Origin: a virus
IMG/VR virus record: IMGVR_UViG_3300005613_000021
Location: 1 to 64,000 of that record
DNA length: 64,000 nt
Strand: one strand, 5' to 3'
Positions 633-9,839 of this stretch are shown here, in pieces. Below the pieces are notes generated by a model. It searched no databases and was not told the origin of the DNA. It worked only from the letters and a program-made list of their open reading frames with translations. A program made the position numbers and the translations under genes. Positions within the stretch are counted from its first letter, which is position 1; every line of letters begins with the position of its first letter.

Positions 633-678
633 CGTAAGTTGTTGATATCAAAGCAGTTACGCCCATCCCGGCCGGCCG
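633..678 (+). repeat. Composite site a: 29-bp palindrome CGTAAGT-NN-TT-N7-AA-NN-AGTTACG + 7 nt + CGGCCGGCCG
   Basis: Same geometry at 1129-1174, 3115-3160 and 3549-3594. Confidence 0.85.
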
Positions 679-698
679 TCAAAATTAGTGTACAAATA

Positions 699-770
699 TG
701 ACCCTATGGAGAATCGAACTCCAGTTTTTGCCGTGAAAGGGCAACGTCCTAGCCGCTAGACGATAGGGCC
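699..770 (-). tRNA. tRNA-Glu (TTC); CCA not encoded
   Basis: GGCCCTA/TAGGGTC acceptor, anticodon arm TTGCC-CTTTCAC-GGCAA, T-arm TGGAG-TTCGATT-CTCCA. Confidence 0.92.
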
Positions 771-778
771 TTTGCAAT

Positions 779-1052
779 GAGACAAACCAGCGAATCTTTT
801 ACGCCCCGATTCTATTGCCCAACAGCCTACCCTTTGACGGAACTGTGGAAACCGCCCACGGAAATCCTTCCTAGGCATAGTTCATGACTCATGCCGTCTG
901 GCTCTTGGGAACGGTTACTGGTTGTATCGAACCCTCTGTGGCCTCGCACCACGCATAGGTATCTTACACGATTGACTAAGGCATGTCAATATGGTGGTCG
1001 ATAGCCTTGTCCTATGCCGCCTAATCGCTTGGGGGTAAGGTTGTGTTGTCTC
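779..1052 (-). ncRNA. Candidate ~270-nt structured ncRNA upstream of tRNA-Glu
   Basis: Lies between a strong promoter and the tRNA, no credible ORF, ends pair (GAGACAA/TTGTCTC), several internal helices. Confidence 0.55.
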
Positions 1053-1055
1053 CTA

Positions 1056-1095
1056 AGCATACCCTATATATCGTCATTGTCAAGCGAAAACTTGA
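1056..1095 (-). promoter_or_regulatory. Dual promoter: TTGACA-N16-TATGCT and TCAA-N16-GACGATAT
   Basis: Direct motif reading. Confidence 0.75.
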
Positions 1096-1128
1096 GAAAA
1101 ATTTTGTGAACCCCCTATTGGTAGGGCT

Positions 1129-1174
1129 CGGCCGGCCGGGGCGAACGTAAGTACTTATACCCCAAGCACTTATA
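1129..1174 (-). repeat. Composite site b (CGGCCGGCCG + 7 nt + 29-bp palindrome), inverted relative to site a
   Basis: CGTAAGT-AC-TT-ATACCCC-AA-GC-ACTTATA at 1146-1174. Confidence 0.85.
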
Positions 1175-1400
1175 TCCACCCTTCAGCTTTTAGTATTTCC
1201 TCAGTGGGAATAACAATAGTACCAGGGGTGGCAGTAACATAGTCTCTAAATCCCCGCTCATCAATATAGAAAAACTCATCAAGTTCATCATGCTCATTAC
1301 ACTCCCACAATACAGTTCGTGCTGCATCCCTTTGTTTTTTACTAGTCGAATAGATTAGTTCTAGACTACCACACTTGATATAATACTTAACCACAATCAA
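1170..1400 (-). CDS. Hypothetical protein
   Basis: 76-aa ORF with GGAGG RBS; stop codon lies inside site b. Confidence 0.75.
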   Translation of the reverse strand: MIVVKYYIKCGSLELIYSTSKKQRDAARTVLWECNEHDELDEFFYIDERGFRDYVTATPGTIVIPTEEILKAEGWI

Positions 1401-1575
1401 CCTCCGTGTGAGAGTATTCCATATCCTTATTACAGTTTAGACATACTGGCGTTCCATGATATTGATACCAATCAGGATTGACATGTGAAGTTTCATAATT
1501 GTTACCTATCTTACAATCTTCATCATAACAACACCACACACATACAATTTTACGGTCTGATACTTTTTTCATCAT
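1387..1575 (-). CDS. Small Cys-rich hypothetical protein
   Basis: Start reassigned downstream of the sigma70 promoter at 1619-1647 (TTGACA-N17-TATAAT); C-terminal CxxC. Confidence 0.7.
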   Translation of the reverse strand: MMKKVSDRKIVCVWCCYDEDCKIGNNYETSHVNPDWYQYHGTPVCLNCNKDMEYSHTEVDCG

Positions 1576-1704
1576 ACTATTATTTATCCTTTTAGTGAGA
1601 TGGAAACAACACGTTTGCATTATACCTTATTTGAGTCTGCCTGTCAATAAAAAATCTCCACCCTATGCCAATTTTGTGTATATTATATAGGAGGATACTT
1701 ATTC

Positions 1705-2295
1705 ATGAATAAAACATCACAGCCTAAAATAGACAATAATACTAAATGGGCAAAAAATAATTTAGATAAAGTACGTCAATACAAGCAAAAATATAAACAT
1801 AAACAAAAAAGATTATCTAGGGAATATATTAAAACTATTAAAGAGCAATCTGGTTGTAAGCTTTGTGGTAATAAAAATATTAACTGTCTAGATTTTCATC
1901 ATCGCCCAAATACAATCAAAAAAAATACAGTATGCAATCTGGTTCGACATGGGTATTCATTAAATATTATTAGAGCAGAAATAAATAAATGTGATATAAT
2001 ATGCTCAAATTGCCACAGAACACAACACTATACTGGTAAATATATGCGTAATAAAAAGGGTTTAAAAATATATAACATTAAATCAAATAGTAAATGTTTA
2101 TATTGTGATTGTAATAAGGTAGAATGTTTAGATTTTCATCATACTGAAGATAATAAAGAAAAAGGGATAGGTGCTATGGTAAGAGATAAAAATATATCTA
2201 TGGAGCAGTTAGAAACAGAGATAAAAAAATGTATCATACTCTGCTCTAACTGCCATAGAACATTTCATGCTAATGACAAGGAAAAAGAACATTAG
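1705..2295 (+). CDS. Tandem HNH-type endonuclease (two CxxC-LDFHH...CSNCH domains), probably a free-standing homing endonuclease
   Basis: Duplicated motif; GGAGG RBS; AT-rich and on the opposite strand to its neighbours. Confidence 0.8.
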   Translation: MNKTSQPKIDNNTKWAKNNLDKVRQYKQKYKHKQKRLSREYIKTIKEQSGCKLCGNKNINCLDFHHRPNTIKKNTVCNLVRHGYSLNIIRAEINKCDIICSNCHRTQHYTGKYMRNKKGLKIYNIKSNSKCLYCDCNKVECLDFHHTEDNKEKGIGAMVRDKNISMEQLETEIKKCIILCSNCHRTFHANDKEKEH

Positions 2296-7937: not shown

Positions 7938-8129
7938 TCACTTGGGGGGATAGCTACCAATCCAGAGCAGATTGTCACGATACACCCTCGCAAGAGGGGT
8001 GCCATGCCTCTTTCGGATGAGCCTGAGTTGAGCAGCAAGCGTACCCCTGTGTTGAGGGGATGGCCCACACTGAACCCATTCGCCAGCCCACCTATTCAAT
8101 CGTTCATCACTTGAGTAGAAGCCTTGCAT
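7938..8129 (-). CDS. Hypothetical protein (start uncertain)
   Basis: ORF track frame; follows 8147-8359. Confidence 0.6.
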   Translation of the reverse strand: MQGFYSSDERLNRWAGEWVQCGPSPQHRGTLAAQLRLIRKRHGTPLARVYRDNLLWIGSYPPK

Positions 8130-8146
8130 AGTGAACACCCTTTCAG

Positions 8147-8359
8147 TTATTCCCAATTCCTGTAACGCAACCGCAACACACCAGCGGCAGCACGAATACC
8201 ATTTTCGACAGACTCACGATCAACCCCCTCAAGGGTGGGGAGATGCTGTTGAGCAACACGAAGCCAAGTCTGAACTGTAAAATCGTTCAGCTTGTGAAAC
8301 TGATTTTGCAATTCGACAACACTAGGGACACGGCCAATTTCCAAAACGCTCATTTTCAT
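8147..8359 (-). CDS. Hypothetical protein
   Basis: AAGGA RBS; sigma70 promoter at 8379-8406. Confidence 0.7.
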   Translation of the reverse strand: MKMSVLEIGRVPSVVELQNQFHKLNDFTVQTWLRVAQQHLPTLEGVDRESVENGIRAAAGVLRLRYRNWE

Positions 8360-8412
8360 TTTCCTTTCAAGTGAAACTAGTCTACCAAAACTTTCCCACG
8401 TGTCAACCCCCA

Positions 8413-8601
8413 CTATTGGGGTACTGTCATCCAACCACCAAGAATGGCTTTGATGTTGGCCTCGCAAAGCCTAATCATTTTCGGATCGTCGAAAGTGTAG
8501 CCTGTAGACTTTCGAACCACTTTCAGAACCTTCACCCCGCCATTGGGGAGGGTGACGTATTCTGCTGAAATTCCGACGATAGGTGAAATCTTTTTGATCA
8601 T
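8413..8601 (-). CDS. Hypothetical protein
   Basis: AAGGA RBS; dual promoter at 8632-8671. Confidence 0.7.
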   Translation of the reverse strand: MIKKISPIVGISAEYVTLPNGGVKVLKVVRKSTGYTFDDPKMIRLCEANIKAILGGWMTVPQ

Positions 8602-8677
8602 TTTCGTTTTCCTTTTCTCTTGTGTTGCTGAAGTATACTCTACTGATCGTCACTTGTCAAGTTTTTCTTGAAAATTT

Positions 8678-9205
8678 TTATGCCATAGCAAACCCCCCAT
8701 TAGCATCCCACTCGATGGTGGGGATATGCTGGTGAATCATAGACTTTCCGAAACCGATACTATATCCGTCAACCCCCCTGTTGGGGGAGCAGTTTGAGAT
8801 CCATCGTTTGATATCGCGAACACTAGCAGTTTTCACGACAACCCCCCTAGTTGGGTGGACGAAAGCGAAAAACAGAATGTCGAACAATTCTGGCTTGATT
8901 CGGTGAAACTTATACCGCCCAGTTGAGGGGGCCGACAGACTACTCTTGCACTCCACCCGAATGGGGGAGCCATCGACTATAATGGCAAGATCGAAGCTAT
9001 TTTGAGAACCCCCCAGATGGGTGGTCTGTACTCCGATTTTCTGCAATCGCTTTGCTATTAGATTTTCGATTGCAACCCCCCTATCGGGGCATGTCTGGAG
9101 AGAGAGCATATAGCTTGACTCGTTCTTTTGGGGGGTATAAACCGCCTCCCCCCTATTTTGGGTGATTGTGGCGAGCGATTCAAGAATATCGGCGGTGGTG
9201 AACAT
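8678..9205 (-). CDS. PD-(D/E)xK restriction-endonuclease-fold protein
   Basis: RGVAIENL...SFDL...RVECKS motif order. Confidence 0.65.
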   Translation of the reverse strand: MFTTADILESLATITQNRGEAVYTPQKNESSYMLSLQTCPDRGVAIENLIAKRLQKIGVQTTHLGGSQNSFDLAIIVDGSPIRVECKSSLSAPSTGRYKFHRIKPELFDILFFAFVHPTRGVVVKTASVRDIKRWISNCSPNRGVDGYSIGFGKSMIHQHIPTIEWDANGGFAMA

Positions 9206-9282
9206 GCTAGGTTTCCTTGTGGTGAACTATTCAAGTATACCAAAACTTTCCAGACTGCTAACCCCCATTATGGGGGGATCGA

Positions 9283-9474
9283 TCAATTTTTCCATTCCCG
9301 AAATACTAGTTGGATATGCTTGCCATACTTGCTTTGAGCATATCGCAAAGCGGTATATCGACTGTTGTCCGTTGAACCAACGGCACCCAATAGCTTCCCG
9401 CTATCGTCAAAGACATTCCAAATCTTTCGACCACGAGTGTTCATTTCAGCGAGGATATCGTAATTTTTTTCCAT
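9283..9474 (-). CDS. Hypothetical protein (start uncertain)
   Basis: ORF track frame; start trimmed to MEKNY. Confidence 0.6.
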   Translation of the reverse strand: MEKNYDILAEMNTRGRKIWNVFDDSGKLLGAVGSTDNSRYTALRYAQSKYGKHIQLVFREWKN

Positions 9475-9535
9475 TTTTCCAAACTTTCCTAAGGGTGAAA
9501 ACTTTCCTAAACTACCAAACTTGCCAGACCCCCCA

Positions 9536-9745
9536 CTAGAGGTAGAGGGTTTCTGACCAATCCCCACAATGGGGGCATATCACCAACTCCCCCTCTTTGG
9601 GGTAGTCCTCAAGGGGGGCATAGCAACAATCTGAACAGGCGAACAGATCGTAGTCATTTTGGGGGGTAGTTTCTTCCACGTTTACTTTTGCAATGAAATC
9701 TGCCATTTTGGCATCCTCTCGATTGTGGGTGTCATTTCTCTTCAT
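9536..9745 (-). CDS. Small Zn-ribbon protein (CSDC...CPHC); start at 9745 (leaderless) or 9706
   Basis: First gene after the dual promoter at 9752-9792. Confidence 0.7.
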   Translation of the reverse strand: MKRNDTHNREDAKMADFIAKVNVEETTPQNDYDLFACSDCCYAPLEDYPKEGELVICPHCGDWSETLYL

Positions 9746-9810
9746 GCCATCATTATACCTTATTCATCGGCAATGGTCAACCCCTAGCATGAAAAAAAAT
9801 CAGATTTTTT

Positions 9811-9839
9811 TGTAAGTCTTTATATCCCAATGGGTTACG
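9811..9839. repeat. 29-bp palindrome, site f
   Basis: TGTAAGT-CT-TT-ATATCCC-AA-TG-GGTTACG. Confidence 0.65.

What the first reader, a model, noticed from the sequence alone, without database searches (positions are those of the whole stretch)
633..9839. Family of 29-bp recombinase-core-like palindromes, four coupled at fixed spacing to CGGCCGGCCG
Seen: consensus CGTAAGT-NN-TT-N7-AA-NN-ACTTACG (11-bp arms, 7-bp variable spacer) at 633, 1146, 3132, 3549 and 9811, and degenerate at 5809. At the first four sites a perfect CGGCCGGCCG lies exactly 7 nt from one end, giving orientations forward, reverse, reverse, forward. All sites fall at boundaries of promoter-plus-gene units, and three overlap stop codons (1170, 3142, 5829). 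Known: inverted 11-13-bp arms around a 6-8-bp spacer is the geometry of tyrosine recombinase core sites (Xer/dif, lox). Inference: a cassette capture or shuffling system for early accessory genes. The spacers differ, so it would have to tolerate spacer mismatch. The alternative is an operator pair. No recombinase gene is in this window.
Basis: partly seen in the sequence, partly recalled or inferred. Interest (0 to 1): 0.8.

Follow-up and report, generated by a model that had tools for sequence, protein, structure and literature searches.

The report
Palindrome-plus-GC-core marks before phage early promoters
The repeated 29-bp palindromes tied to CGGCCGGCCG are real, and are cut-down copies of an 82-bp mirror-symmetric DNA element that a group of uncultured lake phages place between a gene end and the next early promoter; they look like docking sites for an unknown protein, not recombinase sites or RNA hairpins.

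Summary
Four palindromes (633, 1146, 3132, 3549) each lie exactly 7 nt from a CGGCCGGCCG. That decamer occurs nowhere else in the 96.5-kb, 35% GC phage contig. Weaker palindromes lie at 5809 and 9811.

Related IMG/VR phages show the full form: palindrome, 7 nt, G/C-only core, 7 nt, palindrome (about 82 bp, mirror-symmetric). It starts at or near the upstream stop codon and ends about 18, 28 or 39 nt before a consensus sigma-70 -35 box. Three larger relatives carry 11-15 copies each, at almost every early-unit boundary. In the window's clade one palindrome of each pair is replaced by a CCCC-loop-GGGG element.

Across about 40 copies the arms are conserved as sequence, while every variable position pairs at or below chance. 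RNA folds are unremarkable and T-runs are inconsistent. No tyrosine or serine recombinase or Y1 transposase was found in the contig or in three relatives that are at least 91% complete. The 7-bp centres all differ.

The best reading (about 0.5) is a double-stranded DNA docking site for an unidentified regulator or insulator of early promoters. The closest published concept is the PeSL cassette. The recombinase reading is not supported. This scan had already reached the same reading for sister phages.

The parts
633..661 (.). 29-bp palindrome of site 1. It ends 18 nt upstream of the -35 box of the minus-strand promoter for tRNA-Met. It lies between tRNA-Glu (699-770) and tRNA-Met (502-576).
669..678 (.). 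CGGCCGGCCG core of site 1, 7 nt from the palindrome
1111..1126 (-). CCCCCTATTGGTAGGG element. It takes the place of the promoter-side palindrome at site 2.
1129..1138 (.). CGGCCGGCCG core of site 2
1146..1174 (.). 29-bp palindrome of site 2. It contains the stop codon of ORF 1170..1400(-). An orthologous copy is conserved in L021.
3097..3112 (-). CCCCCC-AGAA-TGGTGG element. It takes the place of the promoter-side palindrome at site 3.
3115..3124 (.). CGGCCGGCCG core of site 3
3132..3160 (.). Perfect-consensus 29-bp palindrome of site 3. It contains the stop of a 23-aa ORF (3142-3213, minus strand). The site lies upstream of the promoter (3035-3008) of the GP88-like gene 2270..2983(-).
3549..3577 (.). 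29-bp palindrome of site 4. It ends 17 nt upstream of the -35 box of minus-strand promoter 3531-3503.
3585..3594 (.). CGGCCGGCCG core of site 4
3598..3611 (-). CCCTC-TCGT-GAGGG element on the promoter-distal side of site 4
5809..5837 (.). Decayed palindrome whose core has been lost (GGATCGCGCC at a 13-nt gap). It is syntenic with an intact composite in G002.
9811..9839 (.). Solitary palindrome (3 mismatches, no core), 30 nt upstream of the -35 box of the first early promoter (9780-9752, minus strand)

Best explanation
Each site is a cut-down copy of a clade-wide, mirror-symmetric boundary element: outer arm, 7 nt, inner arm, 7 nt, G/C-only core of about 10 bp, 7 nt, inner arm, 7 nt, outer arm (about 82 bp).

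The element is read as double-stranded DNA by a still unidentified oligomeric protein, either phage-encoded or from the host. It sits directly after the stop codon of one early unit and directly upstream of the A/T-rich UP region and consensus sigma-70 promoter of the next. It stays linked to that downstream promoter when gene order changes.

Inferred function: it sets or insulates the activity of the early promoter, as an activator or shut-off operator, or as a protein roadblock against read-through.

In the window's clade one palindrome of each pair has been replaced by a different, strand-specific CCCC-loop-GGGG element. That leaves one palindrome plus the core, on either side, which explains the two orientations.

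Shuffling of early genes in relatives is best explained by ordinary homologous recombination between these repeated regulatory cassettes. It would be a by-product, not the purpose, of the element.

Shown here: anatomy, conservation pattern, position and the lack of pairing selection. Inferred: protein binding and the regulatory effect.
For: 1. Rigid geometry and non-chance occurrence.

2. The same element occurs in relatives and is confined to their early regions. An nhmmer profile finds 39 copies in G003, G004 and G005, and in each the sense orientation scores better than its reverse-strand match.

3. The conservation is of sequence, not of pairing. The inner arms ACTTA and GTAAGT are about 100% invariant. 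Every variable position pairs at or below chance, whether arms are paired within a palindrome, inner to inner, or outer to outer. Examples are columns 64/78 (6 Watson-Crick pairs against 10.5 expected) and 25/64 (7 against 13.0).

4. Inner and outer arms differ from each other in a mirror-symmetric way about the core. That fits a symmetric protein complex on duplex DNA, not a strand-specific RNA.

5. The distance from palindrome end to the -35 box falls into discrete classes: 17-19, 25-30, 37-40 and 53-56 nt. The window's two canonical sites are at 17 and 18 nt.

6. The composite stays linked to the downstream gene while the upstream neighbour differs. This holds for the GP88-like gene A in the window, G003 and G005 (G004 has a one-substitution core), and for gene C in G003, G004 and G005.

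7. In the orthologous pair of window 1146 and L021, arms and core are kept while the NN positions and the loop changed.

8. Canonical terminators in G003's early region are at chance level, 14 found against 12.7 expected.
Against: - No binding protein was identified. HTH_3 and AbrB/MazE domains were not found in any of the six phages. The only early protein shared by all six gave a low-confidence fold (pLDDT 62.7) and uninformative Atlas hits.
- In the window's clade a palindrome can be replaced by a CCCC-loop-GGGG element. That could mean any hairpin will do, which would favour a structural rather than a sequence-specific role.
- The core sequence drifts at orthologous sites, for example to AGGCGGGCCG and CAGCCGCAAC.
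- The spacing classes are not statistically specific for a 10.5-bp period.
- Many copies are orthologues, so the counts are not independent.
- No experiment exists.
Confidence: 0.5

Rival explanations
1. PeSL-type terminator-promoter cassette. The palindromes would act as RNA stem-loops that end or stabilise the upstream early transcript. The repeated stem-loop-plus-promoter units would serve mainly as substrates for homologous recombination that shuffles small early genes.
For: - The architecture is stem-loop, T-rich stretch, then a near-consensus sigma-70 promoter, in a region of small ORFans. This matches the published PeSL description (PMC4122927).
- Sites 633 and 3549 are followed by TTTTTCTC and TTTTCTCT on the transcribed strand.
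- The upstream stop codon abuts or enters the element in 18 of 36 copies.
- Whole regulatory cassettes of about 300 nt are duplicated within G002. Indels between G001 and G002 consist of whole composite-promoter-gene units.
- A palindrome can be swapped for a G/C hairpin.
Against: - No covariation; variable stem positions pair at or below chance.
- The arms carry a constant 2-3 nt internal mismatch.
- RNA fold z-scores for the window sites are mostly non-significant.
- Only about a third of the copies have a T-run directly after the hairpin.
- The mirror symmetry about the core has no use in an RNA made from one strand.
- The specific sequence is conserved across phages whose genes are only about 69% identical at the nucleotide level. 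Stems of PeSLs differ between phage pairs.
Confidence: 0.22
2. Site-specific recombination sites. Each 11-7-11 palindrome would be a tyrosine (or serine) recombinase core site, used to capture, excise or invert early-gene cassettes.
For: - The 11-7-11 geometry resembles dif or lox sites.
- The sites occur in both orientations.
- The block from gene A to gene B is flanked by direct-repeat composites in the window and in G003. G005 has the empty junction, with the block elsewhere.
Against: - No Phage_integrase or Y1 transposase match was found in this contig or in five relatives, including complete 201-kb and 232-kb genomes. The only Resolvase match is one below the curated cut-off in G005 (15.2 bits against 23.3).
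- The central 7 bp differ in every copy, which is incompatible with tyrosine-recombinase strand exchange between copies.
- There are 11-15 copies per relative, all in one orientation and stably orthologous.
- Site 633 lies inside, not at the edge of, the tRNA indel relative to L021.
- In G003-G005 nearly every unit boundary has a copy, so breakpoints coinciding with copies is uninformative there.
Confidence: 0.04
3. RNA-level protein or RNase signal. The transcribed element would be recognised sequence-specifically by an RNA-binding protein or nuclease, for example in RNase III-like processing, nut-like antitermination, or tRNA and mRNA 3'-end maturation.
For: - The element lies in the 3' untranslated stretch of each early unit and next to tRNA genes.
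- The conserved internal mismatches recall the internal loops of T7 RNase III sites (own knowledge, not tested).
- The partner CCCC-loop-GGGG element is strand-specific, with 43 sense against 11 antisense copies.
Against: - The mirror symmetry of inner and outer arms about the core, and the occurrence of half-composites in both orientations relative to transcription, are not expected for a signal read on one RNA strand.
- There is no Rfam match.
- The predicted structures are weak.
Confidence: 0.1

Closest known systems
PeSL (promoter-early stem-loop) cassettes of T4-type phages (Arbiol et al. 2010, PMC2839356; Comeau et al. 2014, PMC4122927)
   Same: A palindromic motif lies directly upstream of a near-consensus sigma-70 early promoter. 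It is repeated at the boundaries of small ORFan genes in a plastic early region. Indels between relatives consist of whole motif-promoter-gene units.
   Different: PeSL stems are short, simple G(n)-loop-C(n) or A/T-G/C stems that differ between phage pairs and are read as terminators. Here the element is a rigid 82-bp, mirror-symmetric array of four 11-bp arms around a G/C-only core. Its sequence is conserved across distant phages and it shows no selection for base pairing. The window's CCCC-loop-GGGG elements are closer to classical PeSL stems.
Dispersed operator arrays of phage transcription regulators, e.g. phi29 p4 sites (inverted repeats 15 bp apart upstream of promoters) and phage P1 C1 operators (own knowledge, not tested here)
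   Same: 7-bp inverted repeats separated by 15 bp (CGTAAGT-N15-ACTTACG), placed upstream of promoters, with many copies controlling separate units.
   Different: No regulator is known. There are four arms plus a G/C core, and the position is upstream of the UP element rather than overlapping the promoter.
Tyrosine-recombinase core sites (dif, loxP, FRT)
   Same: Inverted arms of 11-13 bp around a centre of 6-8 bp.
   Different: The centres are not shared between copies. No recombinase gene is present. The copies are stable orthologues, and the extra G/C core at a fixed 7 nt has no counterpart.
REP/BIME elements of enterobacteria
   Same: Imperfect extragenic palindromes occurring in inverted pairs with a linker, located after gene ends.
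   Different: No RAYT (Y1 transposase) is present. The element occurs only in the phage early region, and its position relative to promoters is fixed.

Membership tests
Tyrosine-recombinase core site | Two inverted recombinase-binding arms of 11-13 bp around a 6-8 bp overlap region | tested here: met
   11-7-11 geometry at 633, 1146, 3132 and 3549
Tyrosine-recombinase core site | Overlap (spacer) sequence shared by the partner sites | tested here: not met
   The spacers are GATATCA, ATACCCC, TAGATGC and GCAGCGT. The loops also vary across about 40 copies in relatives.
Tyrosine-recombinase core site | Cognate recombinase encoded by the element or genome | tested here: not met
   PF00589: 0 matches in G000-G005. 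PF00239: only one sub-threshold match of 15.2 bits in G005. A host enzyme cannot be excluded.
Tyrosine-recombinase core site | Rearrangement breakpoints fall in the sites | tested here: inconclusive
   The A-B block is flanked by composites. However, site 633 lies inside an indel, and nearly all boundaries in G003-G005 carry a copy. No reads were available.
PeSL cassette | Stem-loop motif directly upstream of a sigma-70-like early promoter, repeated in a plastic region of small ORFs | tested here: met
   17-18 nt from the -35 box at sites 3549 and 633. Sites 1146 and 3132 lie 62 and 96 nt upstream of promoters 1083 and 3035.
PeSL cassette | The stem-loop behaves as a transcription terminator or stable hairpin | tested here: not met
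   No pairing covariation. Fold z-scores range from -2.75 to +1.24 and are mostly non-significant. T-runs are inconsistent.
PeSL cassette | Indels between close relatives are bounded by the motif | tested here: inconclusive
   In G001 against G002, an inserted composite-promoter-gene-promoter unit starts at the composite edge, and another insertion ends about 30 nt from one. Window against L021: the tRNA indel is not bounded by a site.
Intrinsic (Rho-independent) terminator | G/C-rich perfect stem followed at once by a U-tract | tested here: not met
   The stems are A/T-rich with internal mismatches. A U-tract follows only sites 633 and 3549. None of the four was called by the terminator scan.
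Protein operator / regulator docking site | Dyad-symmetric sequence conserved as sequence, with unconstrained non-contact positions | tested here: met
   Column composition and pair statistics on about 40 copies. In the orthologue comparison, arms are kept while NN and loop changed.
Protein operator / regulator docking site | Defined position relative to the regulated promoter | tested here: inconclusive
   Spacing falls into discrete classes near 18, 28, 39 and 55 nt, but the periodicity test is not specific. The half-composites at 1146 and 3132 have the other element on the promoter side.
Protein operator / regulator docking site | A protein that binds it | not testable with these tools
   No candidate was identified.
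REP/BIME | Associated RAYT (Y1 transposase) and genome-wide extragenic spread | tested here: not met
   PF01797 is absent. The copies are confined to the early region.

The most novel reading that the evidence does not exclude
The element would be one letter of a protein-read punctuation code for phage early regions. In this reading it is a mirror-symmetric, factor-dependent boundary that both stops read-through from the upstream unit and tunes the next promoter. It would exist in interchangeable versions, with the palindrome pair in the large relatives and the CCCC-loop-GGGG element in the window's clade. The window's half-composites would catch one version being replaced by the other, slot by slot.
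Probability: 0.25. Interest if true: 0.7.

Novelty: new variant of a known kind. Interest (0 to 1): 0.45.

Why it matters
If a dedicated protein reads these elements, it would be a new regulator-operator system. It would control the host-takeover genes of a widespread, entirely uncultured group of 100-230 kb freshwater phages.

It would also give a sequence handle for delimiting early transcription units in metagenomic phage genomes. In addition, it refines the PeSL idea: boundary cassettes can be protein-type DNA sites rather than simple terminator hairpins.

For this window alone the result is modest, because the four sites are reduced copies of an element this scan has already described in sister phages.

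Tried and rejected
- Megablast of window 1-10000 against 50,697 phage records gave no match. tblastn with the terminase and the GP88-like protein found only distant matches (about 25% identity) to Microcystis, Bacillus and Thermus phages. There is no cultured relative and the host is unknown.
- The Rfam gathering search found only the two tRNAs.
- RNA hairpin or terminator reading: rejected on pair statistics, folds and T-runs.
- Long cruciform (inner-inner or outer-outer pairing): no covariation.
- Recombinase or RAYT: absent.
- Host copies: a genome-contig scan for core plus arm gave 18 matches. Fifteen are chance matches in high-GC genomes. Three are phage-like contigs inside MAGs (L039, L042, L043), so there is no host regulon and no named host.
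- Binder search: PHROGs and Pfam on ten early ORFs found only HNH, GP88/DUF7227 and Kyano_Gp96. HTH_3 and AbrB were absent. The fold of the one early protein shared by all six phages was of low confidence, and the Atlas hits were uninformative.
- Helical phasing: the Rayleigh test gives a broad peak from 9.5 to 13 bp and is not specific.
- Promoter-mimic reading (TTGAC before an arm plus an AGGACT-like -10): only about half of the copies have TTGAC, and the pseudo -10 lacks the key T. Dropped.
- IHF, Fis, NtcA and CtrA consensus sequences were compared by eye from memory. None fits consistently.
- A literature search for GGCCGGCC with bacteriophage and intergenic returned nothing relevant.

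
Full report
**Observation**

The window is the first 64 kb of a 96.5-kb IMG/VR phage contig (CheckV completeness 66%). Bases 1-9800 carry small genes on the minus strand. Most have their own near-consensus sigma-70 promoter (TTGACA, 16-18 nt, TATAAT-like) preceded by an A/T-rich UP-like stretch. 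Structural genes start on the plus strand at about 10.2 kb.

CGGCCGGCCG occurs four times, always 7 nt from a palindrome, against 0.10 expected. It occurs nowhere else in the contig, which is only 35% G+C. Three palindromes contain the stop codon of the upstream ORF.

**The full element in relatives**

Exact-pattern scans of IMG/VR found the same palindrome-7-core unit in other uncultured phages. In each relative GGCCGGCC is confined to a stretch of a few kb to about 14 kb holding small early genes. In three larger relatives the core has a palindrome on both sides. These are G003 (201 kb, terminal repeats, 100% complete), G004 (232 kb) and G005 (128 kb).

A profile built from 14 such units finds 39 copies in those three early regions, 11-15 per genome. 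In every case the sense orientation scores better than the reverse-strand match, and almost every unit boundary has a copy. In the window's own contig the profile finds only the four known sites, as half-matches.

The consensus in the direction of transcription is:
- (T)GAC, then outer arm C-N-TAAA-N-CCTT
- 7 nt, then inner arm AAGGACTTAsG
- 6-7 nt, then a G/C-only block of about 10 bp (GGCCGGCC in about a third of copies)
- 7 nt, then inner arm CGTAAGT-N-CTT
- 7 nt, then outer arm AAC...TTTAsG
- then the A/T-rich UP stretch and TTGACA

The upstream ORF's stop codon abuts or enters the first arm in 18 of 36 copies. The last arm ends 17-19, 25-30, 37-40 or 53-56 nt before the -35 box.

**How the window's sites relate to the full element**

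Sites 633 and 3549 keep the promoter-side palindrome, 18 and 17 nt from the -35 box. Sites 1146 and 3132 keep the far-side palindrome. At these two the promoter side is taken by a CCCC-loop-GGGG element.

The slot upstream of the GP88-like gene shows this directly. G003 and G005 have palindrome-core-palindrome. G004 has the same with a one-base core change. The window has palindrome-core-CCCCCCAGAATGGTGG.

The CCC-N-GGGGT element is abundant and strand-specific in the window's clade, with 43 sense against 11 antisense copies. It is nearly absent from G003-G005. Site 5809 is a decayed copy of an intact composite in G002. Site 9811 is a solitary palindrome 30 nt before the first early promoter.

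**DNA site or nucleic-acid structure?**

Several results argue against a folded structure:
- In about 40 aligned copies the invariant positions pair trivially.
- Every variable position pairs at or below the level expected from shuffling the partner column. This holds whether arms are paired within a palindrome, inner to inner, or outer to outer. One weak exception is column pair 5/31 (p = 0.016).
- All copies carry a 2-3 nt internal mismatch.
- RNA folds of the four window sites, on both strands, give z-scores from -2.75 to +1.24, mostly non-significant.
- T-runs directly after the last arm occur in only about a third of copies.
- Canonical terminators in G003's early region are at chance level, 14 found against 12.7 expected.

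Other results fit a protein reading duplex DNA:
- The inner arms are close to 100% conserved across phages whose shared genes are about 69% identical in DNA and 50-70% identical in protein.
- Inner and outer arms differ from each other in a mirror-symmetric way about the core.
- An orthologous pair (window 1146 and L021) keeps the arms and core while the NN positions and loop have changed.

This is the signature of a duplex DNA site read by a symmetric protein complex, not of an RNA hairpin, a terminator or a cruciform.

**Recombination**

No Phage_integrase or Y1-transposase domain was found in this contig or in five relatives. Three of those relatives are 91-100% complete. The only Resolvase match is one below the curated cut-off in G005 (15.2 bits against 23.3). 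The 7-bp centres differ in every copy.

The composites are linked to the downstream promoter and gene when the upstream neighbour differs. This is seen for gene A in the window, G003 and G005, and for gene C in G003, G004 and G005. Orthologous copies persist, with drifting cores.

Modules do move. The A-x-B block is flanked by direct-repeat composites in the window and G003, and G005 has the empty junction. G002 has an extra composite-promoter-gene unit relative to G001, and it carries a duplicated regulatory cassette of about 300 nt.

However, the window's tRNA-Met, site 633 and tRNA-Glu block is an indel relative to L021, and the site lies inside it, not at its edge. In G003-G005 almost every boundary has a copy, so coincidence with breakpoints says little. 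Homologous recombination between repeated cassettes, as proposed for PeSLs (PMC4122927), is sufficient.

**Verdict**

The finding is real. Its recombinase interpretation is not supported.

I commit, at about 0.5, to a double-stranded docking site for an unidentified regulator or insulator of early promoters. PeSL cassettes are the closest published concept. The binder is unknown.

Earlier notes of this scan on sister phages reached the same reading. One of them concerns a 128-kb phage with 82-bp 29-24-29 elements, which is probably G005. I reached the reading from my own tests before I saw those notes, but they are not independent evidence. What this window adds is the hybrid half-composite form, in both orientations, and the evidence for slot-by-slot replacement by the CCCC-loop-GGGG element.

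Noticed in passing
window 779-1052 (minus strand): A non-coding stretch behind two promoters (1083, 989) and just upstream of tRNA-Glu. It is conserved at 68-82% nucleotide identity in G003, G004, G005, L042 and L043, and partly in L021. It has no Rfam match.
   Followed up: partly
window 3068-3083, 7091-7106, 7813-7828 (plus strand); also L024, L027, L028: A sigma-54-like box, TGGCAC-N5-TTGC(T), lies on the strand opposite to the early genes, about 31-35 nt upstream of the -35 boxes. It is conserved in relatives next to the composites. In G003 it sometimes occurs as an inverted pair (GTGCCAAAAAAGTTTGGCAC), so it may be another operator rather than a promoter.
   Followed up: partly
window 4500-10000, e.g. 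7155-7200, 7880-7935, 8700-9150: A strand-specific CCC(C)-N4-9-GGGG(G)T(TG) element with 43 sense and 11 antisense copies. It also occurs inside ORF 8678..9205 and often abuts TTGACA. It is common in G001 and G002 and nearly absent from G003-G005.
   Followed up: partly
window 10297-10920 (plus strand): A phage-encoded sigma-70-family factor (Sigma70_r2 domain, E = 1.3e-7) is the first large gene after the early region. A homologue sits next to the early region in all five relatives.
   Followed up: partly
window 1705-2295 (plus strand): An AT-rich HNH homing-endonuclease ORF lies on the opposite strand, between early genes A and B. Relatives carry an unrelated gene of about 190-210 aa there. 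A related sequence is present in L042.
   Followed up: partly
window 3142-3213 (minus strand): A 23-aa hydrophobic ORF (MDNILMTGWIILNIILMIVSCCI) with a GGAG ribosome-binding site. Its last codons and stop lie inside the 3132 palindrome.
   Followed up: no
whole contig: CGATCG is absent (0 found against 9.5 expected). The early region is 40-47% G+C against 31-36% in the adjoining structural genes at 10-18 kb.
   Followed up: partly
window 9900-9995: A 29-bp unit, GTTCAGCCGTTCACCCCCCATCCGAGGGT, occurs about two and a half times in tandem at the divergence point between the early and structural genes.
   Followed up: no
window promoters, e.g. 3531-3503, 1083-1056, 3035-3008: Many early promoters carry (G)CCGATA or ACGATA inside the spacer or just after the -10 box. 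A subclass carries CTAAAGTT or CTCAAGTT, which resembles an outer arm of the composite, in the spacer or in the UP region.
   Followed up: no
window 501-760 vs L021: tRNA-Met, site 633 and tRNA-Glu together form an indel that is absent from a G001-like relative. L021 also shows a further composite beyond the left end of this contig, so the early region is truncated by the contig end.
   Followed up: partly
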